A DNA stretch of 64,000 nt, from the sequence record OR757436.1; one strand, written 5' to 3'. Numbering within the stretch: position 1 is the stretch's first letter; every line of letters starts with the position of its first letter. Below, in pieces: positions 52,458 through 62,032 of the stretch. The translations under genes and the position numbers were made by a program. The notes beneath the pieces were generated by a model that had not been told where the DNA came from, did not search any database, and worked only from the letters and a program-made list of their open reading frames with translations. The DNA is from Escherichia phage vB-EcoP-XT73.

Positions 52458-53651
52458 ATGTTTCCAGTAACATTAGAAGATACTGAAGGTAATGTTTTAA
52501 CGGTCCACCCTCCTTGTTATGGGTTCCTTCAGCTTCGAAACTATAATGGTGGCGTTGATGAAGATGATTACGAAGATGAATACTTCGACCCTAACATGTA
52601 TGAGGCAACTCATGGGTGGAATATGCACGTTCGAGTGTGGCATGAAGAGGCTAACGTTCGTAGTGCTGATGGGGAAGAGTTCCTGCTAAGCCGAGAGATG
52701 GATATGTGTAAAATCAAGCATATCTGGAACTCCGGAACTCACATGAAGATGTTAGGTTTTAGACGATGGCGTGATGAAAAACCTGTATCCGCAGATTTAG
52801 GTTGGGGTGCAATTGATCACGAAGGCGAGCTTAAAAATAACATTGAGCACTGGAATGATAAAAACCCTGAGTATCAAACCTCACCTCGTGCTGTACTGGA
52901 AGCTATGGAAGCATTTGTGGACAAAGATCGTCCCTCCTGTTTACGCTGGCACGAAAAAGGTTTTATGGGTGTAGCAACTGAGAATGTTCCTGCTGATCGT
53001 TGTCTGTTCTATTTAATGTTAGATCGAACCTTCTATTGTGATGATGAAGAGAGTCAAGTTGAAACCTTCCTTCATAAATGGTTGGTTGAAGGATGGACAA
53101 TTCTTCAGGCTTACGTTTACTCACGAATGGTTAGCACTTACACTAACCTCTTGGGTGAAACGAAAGCTACTCTGGTTGGTAATGATTGGGATGCTTGTAT
53201 CTTCCCAGCGTCGTTGTTTACGGTTGGTATGGCTGATAAATATGCTGAAGCATTTCAAGTGCCTTGGCGTCAACAGTCGTATAGGGATGGGTGTGGTCAC
53301 TTCCGTGATGAAGATTTTAAGTGGATTCGTTATGAGAATGATGAAACAGCAGAATTACGAGTTAATAATTCGATGTTCTTGCCGGTGATGCACCCTGATT
53401 TAGTAGAGAGCGAATCAGAAATCCTGAAATGTGACAACCTTCTGATCAACTTTACTCGTCGCGTGTCTAAAAATGAGAGAACATCTAACAGGTTAATCTA
53501 CGGCATTCGTGCTGAGGCTAAAGATCTGTTCAACATCTACAACATTGTTCAGCGATTTAGTAGTGGGATTCTGGACCAAAGTTCGGAGTATTCAGTGATT
53601 CCATCCTCTGAGTGGGATGGTGTTATGAGCGGATTATTTTTAGGAAAATAA
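52458..53651 (+). CDS. hypothetical protein (397 aa), first gene of the amidoligase-type operon
   Basis: Long ORF; no motif recognised by eye. Confidence 0.5.
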   Translation: MFPVTLEDTEGNVLTVHPPCYGFLQLRNYNGGVDEDDYEDEYFDPNMYEATHGWNMHVRVWHEEANVRSADGEEFLLSREMDMCKIKHIWNSGTHMKMLGFRRWRDEKPVSADLGWGAIDHEGELKNNIEHWNDKNPEYQTSPRAVLEAMEAFVDKDRPSCLRWHEKGFMGVATENVPADRCLFYLMLDRTFYCDDEESQVETFLHKWLVEGWTILQAYVYSRMVSTYTNLLGETKATLVGNDWDACIFPASLFTVGMADKYAEAFQVPWRQQSYRDGCGHFRDEDFKWIRYENDETAELRVNNSMFLPVMHPDLVESESEILKCDNLLINFTRRVSKNERTSNRLIYGIRAEAKDLFNIYNIVQRFSSGILDQSSEYSVIPSSEWDGVMSGLFLGK

Positions 53652-53661
53652 AAGGTTAGTT

Positions 53662-54633
53662 ATGTCAATCTCCACAACGATCGTACCTCTGAATCTTCAA
53701 CAAGATTTAGGGGAACAGAAGTTCTTAGGTCGTGGGTGCTTCGGTATCCACAACTATATGCAAGGCCAGTGTGTAAATGATATTAATGGTGAAGTTATCA
53801 CTGAAGAGGGGCGTTATAGACGCTTCAACCGTGATATCAACTTGCAATTGGAGATGTTGAATTACTGGACTCACTCTTTTCACGGTCATGTTCCATCTGA
53901 AATTGAAAAGAACTTGGTTGAAACAGCAGACATTATGAACTCTATGTCTTGCTATCGTGATGTATTTACAATCACTTCAGCGAATAGTGTAGCTGTCAAC
54001 CTCCGTGAGCATCCAGCAGATCAAATCTTCACAGGACTTATGCTTTTCCGTAGTATTCTGGAAGGGCAGTATCGTGGAATGGATTTCCTAGCAGAAGGAA
54101 TTGAAGACAGGGAAGAGTGGCTGAAGCGTAAACGCATCGGCATCGCTCTAGTGTTAGCTGGGTTGGGTCGTGACTTCTTCGGTGGGTGGTCTCAACGAGG
54201 AAGAGCCAATGGGAGTAGCGAGAGCACCTCTATTGTTATTAATAACAATATGTCAGCAGCAGCATTCCTTCCTTTGGTTGTAGACTCTGATGAATACACG
54301 AAGCAAGTATGGGTTCAAAACCCCTTCGGTGTTGGTGACAATGAGAATGGTTATGTTCGTAACCACAACCAAGATGCCTTACGAAGATTTGCTCGTGCTA
54401 AAGATCAAGACCCGGACGAGTATGAAACAATGTCAGAGTGGTTAAGACTTTGGTCCAACTGTCATGGTCACAAACGTGAAGCAATAGACAATAAGTTGGA
54501 AAACATTACAGTACAAAACTTTACAGCCCGACTAATTCAGCGTACTGGCCTAAGCTCTGGCCTTACTATTGAAGAAGTTGGTAACACAATCTCATCTCTC
54601 TTTTCTGAACTAGTGGAGTATTACAATGACTAA
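53662..54633 (+). CDS. hypothetical protein (323 aa), operon member
   Basis: Track ORF; overlaps the next gene. Confidence 0.5.
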   Translation: MSISTTIVPLNLQQDLGEQKFLGRGCFGIHNYMQGQCVNDINGEVITEEGRYRRFNRDINLQLEMLNYWTHSFHGHVPSEIEKNLVETADIMNSMSCYRDVFTITSANSVAVNLREHPADQIFTGLMLFRSILEGQYRGMDFLAEGIEDREEWLKRKRIGIALVLAGLGRDFFGGWSQRGRANGSSESTSIVINNNMSAAAFLPLVVDSDEYTKQVWVQNPFGVGDNENGYVRNHNQDALRRFARAKDQDPDEYETMSEWLRLWSNCHGHKREAIDNKLENITVQNFTARLIQRTGLSSGLTIEEVGNTISSLFSELVEYYND

Positions 54634-55432
54634 GCGCAAATTCCTTATTGGGAGCGATCCCGAGATGTTCGTTCGTACCAGCAATGGCATCATCACCTCT
54701 GTGGCTGGTCTGTTAGGCTGTTCTAAGGACGATAAGATCACTCTGGCTAAGGATGTTCGTCTTCAAGAGGACAACGTACTGGCTGAGTTTGATATTGACC
54801 CACAGAGCGGCTTTGAAGCGTTTAACGACAACATGCAACGTGGTATCGATCTCACCAACAATGTCCTGAACAAACTGGACATGGAAACAGCTCCGGGTGT
54901 TAGCTCTCACATCTTCACTGAAGAAGAGATGAAGACTTTCAATGAATCAGCGTTCATCTTCGGGTGTACTCCTGATTTCAACGCTTTCACTGGTCAGAAG
55001 AATCCATCCCCGACTTCTCAGAATAAAGGGCTTCGTACTGCCGGTGGTCACGTACATCTCGGCGTAGTTGGTGCTTTGGATATCACTCTGCAAACTCAGA
55101 TGATGCTGGGTGTGCTGTGTGACTACTTCCTGTCCCTCCCAGCAGTTATTATGGATAAAGACACTCGCCGTAAAGAACTGTACGGCAAAGCATCTGCAAT
55201 CCGTTATAAAGACTATGGTATTGAATACCGTTCACTGTCTAATTTCTGGATTAGCGATCGTGAAAACCGTAAGTTTGTTTACGATCAGGTTGACAAGGTT
55301 GTTCAGCAGTGTGATATGTCCACTCTGATGGCATTGCACTCTCGCCTTCCGATTGAGAAGCTTCATGAAATCATTAACGGCAACAACGTTAAAGAAGCGG
55401 ACCAGCAGATCAAACTCCTTCAGGTAGCATAA
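54626..55432 (+). CDS. hypothetical protein, possibly a second ligase-like enzyme
   Basis: Conserved acidic and His motifs (GSDPEMF, GGHVHLG, EYRS) that could fit a COOH-NH2 ligase fold; unverified. Confidence 0.45.
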   Translation: MTKRKFLIGSDPEMFVRTSNGIITSVAGLLGCSKDDKITLAKDVRLQEDNVLAEFDIDPQSGFEAFNDNMQRGIDLTNNVLNKLDMETAPGVSSHIFTEEEMKTFNESAFIFGCTPDFNAFTGQKNPSPTSQNKGLRTAGGHVHLGVVGALDITLQTQMMLGVLCDYFLSLPAVIMDKDTRRKELYGKASAIRYKDYGIEYRSLSNFWISDRENRKFVYDQVDKVVQQCDMSTLMALHSRLPIEKLHEIINGNNVKEADQQIKLLQVA

Positions 55433-55441
55433 GAGGTTATC

Positions 55442-61166: not shown

Positions 61167-61348
61167 ATAAGTATAAAGTTCTGTTTAAAGACACTAATAC
61201 CGCTGGTGAAATGCGAGCTATGGACCTCGATGCTGACATGTTTAACTTCTCTGATGGCAAAGTGGCCTTCTTTCAAGGAAGCGAAGCCGTTGCAGTGTTT
61301 GAGAGTGCAGCAATCTGCGGTGTGATTAAAATCTTTATTACAGAGTAA
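61163..61348 (+). CDS. hypothetical small protein
   Basis: ATGA-type overlap with the upstream gene. Confidence 0.35.
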   Translation: MNKYKVLFKDTNTAGEMRAMDLDADMFNFSDGKVAFFQGSEAVAVFESAAICGVIKIFITE

Positions 61349-61401
61349 TCTGCTTTAGCCTCTTCGAAAGAGGAGGCTAGTTCGGATAAACTGGAGGTTT
61401 T

Positions 61402-61611
61402 ATGAAACATGAAAGATTAAGTAAAGCCATTGACTCTGTATGGGATGCCGGGTGTGTTATCTACCGAGAGCATCACTCATACGGACAAACCAGAATATTG
61501 ATTCTTAACCCCTTCTGCGAGCAGTTGGGGTTAGAAGTGTTTGTAACAGGAGCCACTGATCAGCAGTGTGCTTATATTGAAAACATCATGAAAGACTGGA
61601 AAGGTATTTAA
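61402..61611 (+). CDS. hypothetical small protein
   Basis: RBS; ends 2 nt before the next start. Confidence 0.4.
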   Translation: MKHERLSKAIDSVWDAGCVIYREHHSYGQTRILILNPFCEQLGLEVFVTGATDQQCAYIENIMKDWKGI

Positions 61612-61612
61612 A

Positions 61613-62032
61613 ATGTCAGAAGTAATTTACGTAGCAACTTATGGTTCTCTTCGTCGTGGTCAAGCTAACTATCTAGTTAATGACCGAGCTGGTGCTAAGT
61701 CAATTGGTGAAGGTTGGACTGAAGACAACTTTGATCTGTTCCGTTATGGTGGTTCCTACTTCCCAAGCATCTCTCTTGCACACAGCAATAACAATAAGCC
61801 TGTTCGTGTAGAAGTGTTTGCTACTGACAAAGCAGGTCTGGAAGGCCCATATGACCGACTGGAAGGTTACAACAAACGTAGCCCTGAAGACAGCTTCTAT
61901 CAACGCACCCAGATTGCCGTTAAGCTGGACTCAGGTGAAACTGTTATCGCTTGGATTTATCACATTGACGAAGAACAAGACGTTCTGGTTGAATCTGGCG
62001 ACTGGTCAGAGTATCTGAAAAGTGAATCTTGA
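61613..62032 (+). CDS. gamma-glutamyl cyclotransferase-like (AIG2/GGCT fold) protein
   Basis: N-terminal YVATYGSLRRGQANY (YGSL motif), downstream Glu in VRVEVFAT, and ...AWIYH. Confidence 0.55.
   Translation: MSEVIYVATYGSLRRGQANYLVNDRAGAKSIGEGWTEDNFDLFRYGGSYFPSISLAHSNNNKPVRVEVFATDKAGLEGPYDRLEGYNKRSPEDSFYQRTQIAVKLDSGETVIAWIYHIDEEQDVLVESGDWSEYLKSES

What the first reader, a model, noticed from the sequence alone, without database searches (positions are those of the whole stretch)
52458..62032. Compact operon encoding ATP-grasp ligase, GS-like amidoligase, class-II amidotransferase and GGCT-like cyclotransferase with many unknown proteins
About 9.6 kb of translationally coupled + strand genes combine the enzymatic toolkit for making and trimming amide (gamma-glutamyl-type) linkages: an ATP-grasp ligase (59715-60911), a glutamine-synthetase-like amidoligase (56056-57159) and possibly a second (54626-55432), a PurF-type amidotransferase domain fused to a Cys-rich region (57239-59269), and a GGCT-like protein (61613-62032). 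They are interleaved with at least seven proteins of no recognisable function. From memory, comparative genomics (Iyer, Aravind and colleagues) predicted that such phage modules synthesise modified peptides or metabolites, or modify proteins or nucleic-acid bases; I do not recall an experimentally defined product. The position next to the primase and replication genes makes nucleotide or DNA modification one plausible target.
Basis: partly seen in the sequence, partly recalled or inferred. Interest (0 to 1): 0.85.

Follow-up and report, generated by a model that had tools for sequence, protein, structure and literature searches.

The report
Known phage amide-ligase cassette, product unknown
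This is the already-described phiEco32-type gene cassette of an E. coli podophage: three ATP-dependent amide-bond ligases, a glutamine-splitting enzyme and a gamma-glutamyl-removing enzyme; the enzymes are real and conserved in hundreds of phages, but nobody yet knows what they make.

Summary
The window is a Kuravirus (phiEco32-like) genome, 99.2% identical to phage XT18. Positions 52458-62032 hold a compact + strand operon encoding COOH-NH2_lig type 2 (PF14395), Amidoligase_2 (PF12224), a class-II glutamine amidotransferase domain, an ATP-grasp ligase and a GGACT/AIG2 cyclotransferase. All keep their catalytic residues across distant phages.

It is not new. The Pfam family is named after phiEco32, and papers citing Iyer et al. 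2009 and Hardies et al. 2013 describe the same cassette. I found no experimentally defined product.

What I add:
- The amidotransferase starts at a conserved AUU codon (57239), behind an invariant 52-nt leader. Database annotations start downstream and lose the catalytic Cys.
- Three "unknown" proteins are cassette-specific core parts. ORF1 and ORF2 look like paralogues, and ORF1's confident model matches no solved fold.
- One interleaved ORF is the phiEco32 gp79 RNA-polymerase regulator, not pathway chemistry.
- Zobellviridae versions carry a C26 gamma-glutamyl hydrolase where this phage has GGCT.

Best reading: stepwise assembly of a glutamate-containing amide adduct on an amine acceptor, with glutamine-derived amidation and later gamma-glutamyl removal. 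DNA modification is neither supported nor excluded.

The parts
52458..53651 (+). ORF1, 397 aa. Cassette-specific protein of unknown function, acidic (net charge -27), with a predicted fold that has no solved relative.
53662..54633 (+). ORF2, 323 aa. Probable distant paralogue of ORF1, function unknown.
   Evidence: Shares motifs with ORF1: PADRCLFYLM / HPADQIFTGLM and WRQ..Y..G.GH.RDED / W.QNPFG.G.N.NGY.RNH (hhalign E 0.15). A strict ORF2 profile hits Privateer gp093 (2e-5) and 7-11 gp106 (1e-3). The iterated profile hits both the ORF1-type and ORF2-type proteins in SU7 and 7-11. Foldseek finds two such proteins per phage in GAP52 and LAh_8.
54626..55432 (+). ORF3, 268 aa. COOH-NH2 ligase type 2, a carboxylate-amine ligase.
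   Evidence: PF14395 2.2e-8, above the gathering score. PHROG 3815 3e-118. Conserved across 10 lineages: DPE (90% or more); invariant Q47, D49, E54, GC.PD, R137, GGH.H (H142, H144), E200-Y-R202.
55442..56059 (+). ORF4, 205 aa, GTG start. Always sits between the two amidoligase genes; function unknown.
   Evidence: Positional and profile homologues are present in almost every cassette locus examined. Motifs ESPDVGY and SWTHINPVRQRAKGL are invariant within Gordonclarkvirinae; R106, G111, K160 and G165 are invariant across lineages. AlphaFold2 is confident only for residues 1-80, mean pLDDT 59. No PDB hit.
56056..57159 (+). ORF5, 367 aa. Amidoligase_2, a GS-like carboxylate-amine ligase.
   Evidence: PF12224 4e-8, above the gathering score. 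PHROG 7469 9e-159. Invariant across 11 lineages, including an Arthrobacter siphovirus: E31-x-E33, W45, S52, E58, H95-x-H97, R130, N175, G183, E186-F-R188.
57160..57238 (+). Conserved leader of the amidotransferase gene: hairpin 57167-57187, 9-codon mini-ORF 57206-57235 (ATG..TAG), Shine-Dalgarno AGGTGGA 57224-57230.
   Evidence: 52 nt (57192-57243) are identical in Kuravirus, Suseptimavirus and Nieuwekanaalvirus, although the downstream protein is only 67-69% identical. The hairpin carries compensatory changes.
57239..59269 (+). ORF6, 676 aa, AUU start. Class-II (Ntn) glutamine amidotransferase domain (about residues 1-235), a conserved middle region, and a C-terminal region with two Zn-ribbon-like CxxC modules.
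   Evidence: PF13522 1.1e-14. PHROG 4736 aligns from residue 2. Invariant across 8 lineages: C2, R29-G30, G83-H84-x-R86, N97-A-H-P-F101, H110-N-G112, D129-S130. In the first 113 codons, 44 are synonymous-only against 25 nonsynonymous versus SU7, so the stretch is coding. The N-terminal domain resembles GlmS, PurF, AsnB and EgtC, all far below their family cut-offs, and there is no SIS domain.
59274..59507 (+). ORF7, 77 aa. DUF7195; follows the amidotransferase in most lineages; ribbon-helix-helix-like sequence pattern.
   Evidence: PF23825 4.7e-17. Homologues in 7-11, Privateer, Vp_R1, UFV-P2 and Bjorn. The C-terminus is not conserved, so it is not a Pup/ubiquitin-type tag. The RHH reading is my inference from the sequence pattern.
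59488..59712 (+). ORF8, 74 aa. Unknown; restricted to Gordonclarkvirinae.
   Evidence: PHROG 13464, function unknown. Homologues found only in Paul and SU7.
59715..60911 (+). ORF9, 398 aa. ATP-grasp ligase (about residues 1-290), an acidic linker, and an 82-aa C-terminal domain.
   Evidence: PHROG 2599 6e-186; the C-terminal part matches PHROG 20552. Nearest characterised relatives are MptN, RimK and Ddl, all far below cut-off. Invariant across 10 lineages: K85, R121, G129-x-G131, E157, R159, H161, K173, D229, E241-V-N243.
60918..61166 (+). ORF10, 82 aa. Homologue of phiEco32 gp79, an inhibitor of sigma70 transcription and activator of gp36 transcription. It is embedded in the operon but is not pathway chemistry.
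   Evidence: Annotation of the 95%-identical phage Paul. Function of gp79 from PMC8948821. Absent from the 7-11 and LUZ24-type cassettes.
61163..61611 (+). ORF11 (61163-61348, 61 aa) and ORF12 (61402-61611, 69 aa). Small proteins of unknown function with patchy distribution.
   Evidence: No Pfam hit. ORF12 has a homologue in 7-11 (6e-24); ORF11 only in Gordonclarkvirinae.
61613..62032 (+). ORF13, 139 aa. GGACT/AIG2-type gamma-glutamyl(amine) cyclotransferase.
   Evidence: PF06094 2.8e-17, 63.8 bits against a cut-off of 22.8. Invariant across 7 lineages: Y10-G-[ST]-L13, G16, N19, D81-x-L-E84, Y96, R98. PDB relatives are PH0828 and mouse GGACT. Found in 177 phage records.

Best explanation
The region is the phiEco32-type amidoligase cassette. 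It is expressed with the early/middle replication genes of a Kuravirus.

Proposed mechanism:
1. Three ATP-dependent carboxylate-amine ligases each activate a carboxylate as an acyl-phosphate and join it to an amine. They are two GS-like enzymes (ORF3, ORF5) and one RimK/MptN-like ATP-grasp (ORF9). Together they build a short, glutamate-containing, amide-linked adduct on an amine-bearing acceptor.
2. The Ntn glutaminase (ORF6) splits glutamine. It either supplies ammonia that converts one activated carboxylate into a carboxamide, or acts EgtC-like as a gamma-glutamyl amidohydrolase.
3. A gamma-glutamyl group with a free alpha-amine is later removed as 5-oxoproline by the GGACT enzyme (ORF13).
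4. The cassette-specific proteins ORF1, ORF2 and ORF4 most likely provide acceptor recognition or scaffolding.

I think the acceptor is most likely a soluble cytoplasmic small molecule: an amino acid or peptide, a cell-wall precursor, or a polyamine.

Shown here: the enzyme families, intact catalytic residues, conservation, gene order, and expression (from the literature). Inferred: the order of steps, the gamma-glutamyl intermediate, and the acceptor.
For: - Family assignments with catalytic residues invariant across 7-11 divergent phage lineages.
- The same gene order in Kuravirus, Suseptimavirus, 7-11, Privateer, Vp_R1, UFV-P2 and Bjorn. The order is rearranged but the set is complete in TC6, Klyazma and WD615. 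ORF3, ORF4, ORF5, ORF6 and ORF9 occur together in almost all of the 35 loci scored.
- A minimal set of GGCT + Amidoligase_2 + GATase occurs in Arthrobacter phage Salgado.
- Glutamate is the recurring theme. The ATP-grasp is nearest to alpha-L-glutamate ligases, the amidotransferase keeps the glutamine-binding residues, and there is a GGACT enzyme.
- Zobellviridae-type cassettes have no detectable GGCT in the fetched loci. They carry instead a Peptidase_C26 gamma-glutamyl hydrolase, the PuuD / folate-conjugase family (PF07722, 1e-16 and 3e-14). Two unrelated enzyme families that both cleave gamma-glutamyl amides point to such a bond in the pathway.
- The known substrates of both families are small molecules (my knowledge of GGCT/GGACT, BtrG and PuuD).
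- The proteins are made during infection. SU10 proteomics detected the ATP-grasp, the amidotransferase, YtfP and one further early-region hypothetical (gp86, 23.3 kDa, possibly the ORF4 homologue) (PMC4281155).
- The genes are under selection. Two independently evolved lines of a P. aeruginosa phage both acquired missense changes in the amidoligase and the amidotransferase (PMC11450229).
Against: - No product has been measured, and the acceptor is a guess.
- Salinivibrio phage CW02 carries both C26 and AIG2. The two are therefore not strict substitutes and may do different jobs.
- A ligase that makes gamma-glutamyl bonds alongside enzymes that break them could also be a futile-looking cycle whose purpose I do not understand.
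- The GS-like fold of ORF3 and ORF5 rests on Pfam's classification and motif patterns. Profile searches of the PDB found nothing, and hhalign did not link ORF3 to ORF5.
- The Zn-ribbon modules of ORF6 and the RHH-like ORF7 would suit a macromolecular target.
Confidence: 0.45

Rival explanations
1. Cell-wall editing, the published hypothesis. The ligases and the amidotransferase alter peptidoglycan stem peptides or their cytoplasmic precursors, by extra gamma-glutamyl, amidated or D-Ala-type linkages. This changes the envelope after infection and excludes superinfecting phages or tunes lysis.
For: - Attributed to Iyer et al. 2009 and Hardies et al. 2013 by PMC10580990 and PMC5498523.
- The ATP-grasp resembles Ddl as closely as RimK.
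- Carboxylate amidation by a glutaminase plus a ligase is how MurT/GatD and AsnB-type enzymes amidate peptidoglycan (my knowledge).
- In 7-11 and Privateer an endolysin gene lies 1-1.5 kb upstream of the cassette, in the same early-strand cluster.
Against: - There are no signal peptides, Mur-ligase or peptidoglycan-binding domains.
- In peptidoglycan the gamma-D-Glu has its alpha-amine acylated, so it is not a GGACT-type substrate (my knowledge).
- A 20-40 min lytic cycle can change only nascent wall.
- The cassette, or its GATase + amidoligase core, also occurs in phages of actinobacteria whose wall chemistry differs.
- No muropeptide data exist.
Confidence: 0.2
2. DNA or nucleotide hypermodification. 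The cassette decorates a base, or a nucleotide precursor, with an amino-acid-derived amide group, and this underlies the restriction resistance of Gordonclarkvirinae.
For: - The BASEL study found Gordonclarkvirinae remarkably resistant to RM systems without any known modification pathway or inhibitor (PMC11990801).
- The window still has plenty of target sites, so site avoidance does not explain that resistance: EcoRV 25, EcoKI 10, EcoRI 8, EcoP1I 85.
- The cassette always sits next to the primase/helicase.
- ORF6 has Zn-ribbon modules and ORF7 looks RHH-like.
Against: - The cassette has no hydroxymethylase, dioxygenase, 5-hmU kinase, glycosylase-like or transglycosylase domain. There is therefore no obvious reactive handle on a base.
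- All the large cassette proteins are acidic.
- Linkage to the primase is inherited synteny within one podophage supergroup.
- The BASEL authors themselves suspect the dCTP deaminase and the nucleotidyltransferase, not this cassette.
- GGACT and C26 enzymes are known only on small molecules (my knowledge).
Confidence: 0.1
3. Protein modification. A RimK-like ATP-grasp and PafA/Dop-like GS-type ligases add glutamate(s) or a peptide to a host or phage protein, such as ribosome, RNA polymerase or virion components. The glutaminase and the cyclotransferase then edit the tag.
For: - The ATP-grasp is nearest to the RimK/MptN glutamate ligases.
- GS-like ligases do tag proteins in pupylation (my knowledge; this is the theme of Iyer 2009).
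- The conserved but predicted-disordered stretch of ORF4 (residues 84-127) could be a docking or substrate loop.
- The Zn-ribbon modules could bind a protein partner.
- The operon also carries the RNA-polymerase regulator gp79.
Against: - There is no Pup-like small protein with a conserved C-terminal Glu/Gln. The C-terminus of ORF7 is not conserved, and that of ORF4 is conserved only within Gordonclarkvirinae.
- RimK equivalog score is 25.5 bits against a cut-off of 331.
- GGACT needs a free alpha-amino gamma-glutamyl group, which a Pup-type linkage lacks (my knowledge).
Confidence: 0.15

Closest known systems
phiEco32-type phage amidoligase cassette (Iyer, Abhiman, Burroughs & Aravind 2009; called the 'peptidoglycan modification cassette' after Hardies et al. 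2013)
   Same: It is this cassette. It has the same Pfam families (PF14395 is literally named 'Phage phiEco32-like COOH.NH2 ligase-type 2') and the same gene order, and it is 94-99% identical to Kuravirus genomes that are annotated this way.
   Different: Nothing essential differs. Details added here: the AUU start and its leader, the ORF1/ORF2 paralogy and their lack of any solved structural relative, ORF4 as an obligatory partner, and C26 hydrolase in place of GGCT in Zobellviridae versions.
Butirosin side-chain pathway (BtrJ ATP-grasp ligase + BtrG gamma-glutamyl cyclotransferase)
   Same: An ATP-grasp ligase installs a gamma-glutamyl group on an amine as a temporary protecting group, and an AIG2/GGACT-family enzyme removes it as 5-oxoproline (my knowledge). 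This is the logic I propose for the cassette.
   Different: The cassette has no acyl-carrier protein, PLP decarboxylase, monooxygenase or acyltransferase. No sequence relationship beyond the family level was tested.
Gamma-glutamylation of amines: PuuA/PuuD (putrescine), the Pau system, and EgtA/EgtC (ergothioneine)
   Same: A GS/GCS-like ligase makes a gamma-glutamyl amide, and a glutamine-amidotransferase-fold hydrolase removes it. That hydrolase is C26 in Puu and class-II Ntn in EgtC. The Zobellviridae cassettes carry a C26 enzyme, and ORF6 weakly resembles EgtC.
   Different: No oxidases or dehydrogenases of a catabolic route are present. All scores are far below the family cut-offs. The cassette has three ligases rather than one.
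Glutathione / gamma-glutamyl cycle (GshA-type ligase, GshB ATP-grasp, GGCT/ChaC)
   Same: The same three enzyme folds occur in the same logical order.
   Different: ORF3, ORF5 and ORF9 match no glutathione-synthesis model. The cassette also has an extra glutaminase and cassette-specific proteins.
Dapdiamide-type dipeptide antibiotic assembly (DdaG/DdaF ligases + DdaH AsnB-type amidotransferase); peptidoglycan amidation by MurT/GatD
   Same: Each pairs a ligase with a glutamine amidotransferase that turns a carboxylate into a carboxamide, plus an ATP-grasp that adds an amino acid (my knowledge).
   Different: Different ligase families are used. ORF6 has no AsnB synthetase (PP-loop) domain.
Thymidine hypermodification clusters (5-HMUDK, aGPT-Pplase; Lee et al. 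2021/2022)
   Same: Some such clusters in viral contigs include genes with amidoligase and amidotransferase Pfam matches.
   Different: None of the defining enzymes of those pathways is present in the cassette.

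Membership tests
phiEco32-type amidoligase cassette | Co-linear genes for COOH-NH2_lig type 2, Amidoligase_2, class-II GATase, ATP-grasp and AIG2/GGCT in a phage early/middle region. 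| tested here: met
   Same order in phiEco32-group genomes and in 7-11, UFV-P2, Vp_R1 and Bjorn.
Class-II (Ntn) glutamine amidotransferase | Cys as the first residue after initiator Met removal. | tested here: met
   ATT(57239)-TGT, with a TAG stop 3 nt upstream and the SD AGGTGGA. Homologues start ATG-TGT or TTG-TGT. PHROG and tblastn alignments begin at residue 1-2. Use of AUU as the start is inferred, not shown.
Class-II (Ntn) glutamine amidotransferase | Glutamine-binding and oxyanion residues (the Arg, Asn-Gly and Asp of PurF/GlmS). | tested here: met
   R86 (GHSRHAT), H110-N111-G112 and D129-S130 (VDSE) are invariant in 8 lineages. Alignment to PurF.
Class-II (Ntn) glutamine amidotransferase | A fused or partnered acceptor (synthase) domain that receives the ammonia. 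| tested here: inconclusive
   The C-terminal 440 aa match no family. The partner may be ORF3 or ORF5, or the enzyme may be a hydrolase like EgtC.
[quoted passage not shown] | C-terminal SIS isomerase domains and a full-length match. | tested here: not met
   TIGR01135 35.6 bits against a cut-off of 418, N-terminal domain only; no SIS hit.
ATP-grasp carboxylate-amine ligase | ATP-grasp fold with the Lys, Gly-rich loop and Asp/Glu-x-Asn Mg-ATP ligands. | tested here: met
   The window protein's Pfam scores are below the gathering score (17.8 and 16 bits). The Privateer homologue passes PF08443 with 33.7 bits. K85, G129-x-G131, K173, D229 and E241-V-N243 are invariant in 10 lineages. PDB hits are Ddl and RimK.
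RimK (ribosomal protein S6 glutamate ligase), the PHROG name for ORF9 | Equivalog-level similarity to RimK. | tested here: not met
   NF007764 25.5 bits against a cut-off of 331; rimK_fam 34.2 bits against 143.
GS-like (GCS2/Amidoligase) carboxylate-amine ligases | Pfam membership plus conserved acidic, His-x-His and Glu-x-Arg motifs. | tested here: met
   ORF3 PF14395 34.1 bits against 25; ORF5 PF12224 33.9 bits against 22. Invariant motifs.
GS-like (GCS2/Amidoligase) carboxylate-amine ligases | Glutamine-synthetase-type fold. | not tested
Profile searches of PDB sequences found nothing, and hhalign of ORF3 against ORF5 gave E 0.22.
GGACT/AIG2 gamma-glutamyl(amine) cyclotransferase | YG[ST]L motif and the catalytic Glu. 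| tested here: met
   PF06094 63.8 bits against 22.8. Y10-G-S-L13 and E84 are invariant in 7 lineages. Aligns to PH0828 and mouse GGACT.
Phage DNA hypermodification pathway | An enzyme that creates a reactive base (dUMP/dCMP hydroxymethylase, TET/JBP dioxygenase) plus a 5-hmU kinase, aGPT-Pplase or transglycosylase. | tested here: not met
   None among the cassette ORFs by Pfam, PHROGs or NCBIfam. The rest of the genome was not scanned here; PMC11990801 reports no known pathway in these phages.
Pupylation-like peptide tagging | A small tag protein with a conserved C-terminal Gln/Glu (or Gly-Gly) that the ligase activates. | tested here: not met
   The C-terminus of ORF7 varies. The C-terminus of ORF4 is conserved only within Gordonclarkvirinae.

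The most novel reading that the evidence does not exclude
The cassette is a new kind of DNA (or nucleotide-pool) hypermodification pathway. It would attach a glutamate- or glutamine-derived amide group to phage DNA, using proteins that have no solved structural relative (ORF1, ORF2, ORF4) for base or DNA recognition. It would be the missing explanation for the broad restriction resistance of Gordonclarkvirinae.
Probability: 0.1. Interest if true: 0.85.

Novelty: already known. Interest (0 to 1): 0.4.

Why it matters
The amidotransferase of this cassette is found in 328 of about 50,700 phage records, across podophages of Escherichia, Pseudomonas, Vibrio, Aeromonas, Proteus, Salmonella and others. 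Its conserved block takes up 5-10 kb of small genomes. The catalytic residues are under purifying selection, and two of its genes changed in parallel in an evolution experiment.

Even so, its product has remained unknown for more than 15 years. Knowing the product would show what small-molecule, envelope or macromolecule chemistry these phages impose on the cell. It would also either explain or rule out a link to the unexplained restriction resistance of Gordonclarkvirinae, which are used in phage therapy.

There is a practical point for annotators. The amidotransferase is mis-annotated in public records, both as 'GlmS' and with truncated starts that lack the catalytic Cys.

Tried and rejected
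- **ORF7 as a Pup/ubiquitin-like tag.** Suggested by a weak UBL hit (E 0.12). Rejected because its C-terminus is not conserved; the pattern fits a ribbon-helix-helix protein better.
- **ORF4 as a LysW-type carrier with a reactive C-terminus.** Rejected because the ..LVESL end is conserved only within Gordonclarkvirinae.
- **Strict non-orthologous displacement of GGCT by C26.** Softened because Salinivibrio phage CW02 has both.
- **Read-through of the TAG before 57239, giving a PurF-like propeptide.** Considered less likely than AUU initiation, because an SD sits at the right distance and other lineages start directly at Met-Cys. Not excluded.
- **Sequence-profile searches of the PDB** for ORF1, ORF2, ORF3, ORF4 and ORF5 found nothing.
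- **hhalign.** ORF1 against ORF2 was only suggestive (E 0.15). ORF3 against ORF5 was negative.
- **ORF4 structure prediction.** AlphaFold2 gave a poor model (pLDDT 59), so its Foldseek hits only confirm homologues.
- **Fold library.** The afdb50 library was unavailable.
- **The search for related loci.** It failed with the 11-lineage amidoligase alignment. With a 7-lineage alignment it returned only the same phage supergroup, so no new gene neighbourhoods were gained.
- **Extra domains.** Pfam scans of the longer homologues (Vp_R1 ATP-grasp, 750 aa; Bjorn and 7-11 amidoligases) revealed no informative fusions.
- **Papers not held.** The primary papers (Iyer 2009, Hardies 2013, Savalia 2008) are not in the library. 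Their content is cited second-hand or from memory.

Full report
**What the window is.** The 9.6-kb region is 99.2% identical over its full length to Escherichia phage vB-EcoP-XT18. It is 94-97% identical to NJ01, Paul, SGF2, MN05 and about 60 other Kuravirus genomes (Gordonclarkvirinae, the phiEco32 group). Composition is uniform, about 41-45% GC. The cassette lies on the + strand with the early/middle genes. It is followed by the primase/helicase here, and by the exonuclease, a nucleotidyltransferase and dCTP deaminase in the relatives.

**Check of the observation.**
- Spacers are -20 to +11 nt, except 79 nt before the amidotransferase and 53 nt before 61402.
- A terminator-like hairpin with a T-run at 51885-51902 precedes the operon.
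- The exact gp36-type promoter element TAATGTATA occurs four times in the window but not near the cassette. The consensus is confirmed in PMC8948821.
- Pfam places 54626-55432 in PF14395 (COOH-NH2_lig, 'Phage phiEco32-like'), 56056-57159 in PF12224 (Amidoligase_2), the N-terminus of 57239-59269 in the class-II GATase families, and 61613-62032 in PF06094 (GGACT). All four are above the gathering scores.
- The ATP-grasp (59715-60911) is sub-threshold in Pfam. It matches PHROG 2599 at 6e-186 and resembles Ddl and RimK structures. Its Privateer homologue passes PF08443.

**Are the enzymes competent?** Alignments across 7-11 phage lineages, with 19-50% identity to the window proteins, keep the residues that define each family.
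- Amidoligase_2: E-x-E, H-x-H and E-F-R.
- COOH-NH2_lig: DPE (in 90% or more), with invariant GGH-x-H and E-Y-R.
- Amidotransferase: Cys2, R86, H-N-G 110-112 and D129 (compare PurF).
- ATP-grasp: K85, the G-x-G loop, K173, D229 and E-V-N 241-243.
- Cyclotransferase: YG[ST]L and E84.

By NCBIfam, the amidotransferase domain resembles GlmS, PurF, AsnB and EgtC only weakly and has no SIS domain. The ATP-grasp is nearest to MptN and RimK glutamate ligases, far below their cut-offs. The database names 'GlmS' and 'S6 glutaminyl transferase' are therefore family-level labels, not functions.

**The start of the amidotransferase gene.**
- The mechanical ORF begins at TTG 57578, and public records start the gene 10, 45 or 114 codons downstream of the Cys codon.
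- The frame is open from a TAG at 57233-57235. It has no ATG, GTG or TTG until 57578.
- It reads ATT-TGT at 57239-57244, 8 nt after the SD AGGTGGA.
- Homologues in 7-11, Privateer, UFV-P2 and Salgado read ATG-TGT/TGC at this position. TC6 and WD615 read TTG-TGT.
- The 113 'extra' codons show 44 synonymous-only against 25 nonsynonymous differences versus SU7, and they contain most of the catalytic residues.
- A 52-nt stretch (57192-57243), running from upstream of a 9-codon mini-ORF (57206-57235) through the ATT, is identical in three genera whose proteins are only 67-69% identical. An upstream hairpin shows compensatory changes.
- More distant relatives (L017-L019) use ATG.
- I conclude that the gene starts at AUU. 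Initiation may occur through coupling to the mini-ORF. This is inferred, not shown.

**The 'unknown' proteins.**
- ORF10 is the homologue of phiEco32 gp79, which inhibits sigma70 transcription and stimulates gp36-dependent transcription. It is absent from the 7-11- and LUZ24-type cassettes, so it is a passenger.
- ORF7 is DUF7195. It follows the amidotransferase in most lineages, has a variable C-terminus, and looks ribbon-helix-helix-like.
- ORF4 always lies between the two amidoligase genes. Its most conserved stretch (residues 84-127) is predicted to be disordered.
- Shared motifs, transitive profile hits and those paired Foldseek hits suggest that ORF1 and ORF2 are old paralogues.

**Distribution.**
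- tblastn finds the amidotransferase in 328 phage records, the GGACT enzyme in 177, and the C26 enzyme in 59.
- Of the 35 loci scored, almost all carry ORF3, ORF4, ORF5, ORF6 and ORF9 together.
- Most loci have GGCT. The Zobellviridae-type loci (TC6, Klyazma, WD615) lack it in the fetched region and carry a Peptidase_C26 gamma-glutamyl hydrolase upstream.
- CW02 has both enzymes, so the replacement is not strict.
- Arthrobacter phage Salgado has only GGCT, Amidoligase_2 and GATase.

**What is known.**
- Papers citing Iyer et al. 2009 and Hardies et al. 2013 describe exactly this cassette. They name phiEco32, 7-11, LUZ24, PaP3, tf, PA11, RIO-1 and CW02, and they hypothesise cell-wall modification and superinfection exclusion.
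- SU10 proteomics detected the ATP-grasp, the amidotransferase and YtfP.
- Two evolved lines of a P. aeruginosa phage both gained missense changes in the amidoligase and the amidotransferase.
- The BASEL study reports strong RM resistance of Gordonclarkvirinae without a known modification pathway, and suspects the dCTP deaminase and the nucleotidyltransferase.
- Lee et al. note amidoligase and amidotransferase genes next to thymidine-hypermodification genes in metagenomic contigs.
- None of the ten literature searches found a defined product.

**Mechanism.** Three acyl-phosphate-forming ligases, a glutaminase and one or two gamma-glutamyl-cleaving enzymes fit a particular scheme best. A short glutamate-containing amide adduct is assembled on an amine, one carboxylate is amidated, and a gamma-glutamyl group with a free alpha-amine is later removed. 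This is the same logic as BtrJ/BtrG, PuuA/PuuD and EgtA/EgtC (my knowledge). The acceptor is unknown. I favour a soluble small molecule for three reasons: the GGACT and C26 families are known only on small molecules, the proteins are acidic, and no nucleic-acid or envelope-binding domain is present. Cell-wall editing, protein glutamylation and DNA modification remain open. The window keeps many restriction sites, so the reported RM resistance needs some explanation, but nothing ties it to this cassette.

**Verdict.** The finding is real, correctly read at the enzyme level, and already known. Its function is an open problem.

Noticed in passing
window 57160-57244: The amidotransferase gene appears to start at a rare AUU codon. 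It sits behind a 52-nt leader that is identical in three genera, with a hairpin, a 9-codon mini-ORF ending 3 nt before the ATT, and a strong SD. Public annotations start 10-114 codons downstream and so lack the catalytic Cys.
   Followed up: yes
window 63185-64000: The primase/helicase gene matches phage Paul only up to codon 311 (window 63184). After that come a stop, an HNH endonuclease ORF (63281-63781, PF13392 1.6e-8) and a weak group I intron match (Rfam RF00028, 63693-63919, 22.8 bits, below the gathering score). The second exon is not reached before the window ends. This is probably a homing-endonuclease-bearing intron.
   Followed up: partly
L002 5914-6384; L004 7584-7988; L012 9206-9640 and 13913-14380; L006 7325-7741 and 12649-13146: HNH homing-endonuclease genes sit at different intergenic positions inside the cassette in different phages (SU7, UFV-P2, Klyazma, WD615). 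In one search, PE006 and YF01 also show an HNH gene within the matched region. The cassette looks like a hot spot for homing endonucleases.
   Followed up: no
whole window: CCWGG (Dcm/EcoRII) sites are strongly depleted, 10 found against 72 expected. PstI is 0 against 10.5, and GGCC is 62 against 125. EcoRV, EcoKI and HindIII sites are not depleted.
   Followed up: no
window 3453-3461 (-), 3525-3533 (+), 12798-12806 (-), 27859-27867 (-): Four exact copies of TAATGTATA, the promoter element of the phage sigma factor gp36 in phiEco32 (0.7 expected by chance). None lies in the 38-64 kb early/middle region.
   Followed up: partly
window 52458-53651 (ORF1) and 53662-54633 (ORF2): ORF1 gives a confident AlphaFold2 model with no solved structural relative. 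Together with ORF2 it seems to form a phage-only paralogous family that is tied to the cassette.
   Followed up: partly
L003 3393-3818; L009 2763-3185: In 7-11 and Privateer an endolysin gene lies in the early-strand cluster, 1-1.5 kb upstream of the cassette. That is an unusual place for a lysis gene.
   Followed up: no
window 51929-52081: A 50-aa ORF with a hydrophobic N-terminal segment (a possible membrane or secreted peptide) opens the operon, just after the terminator-like hairpin at 51885-51902.
   Followed up: no
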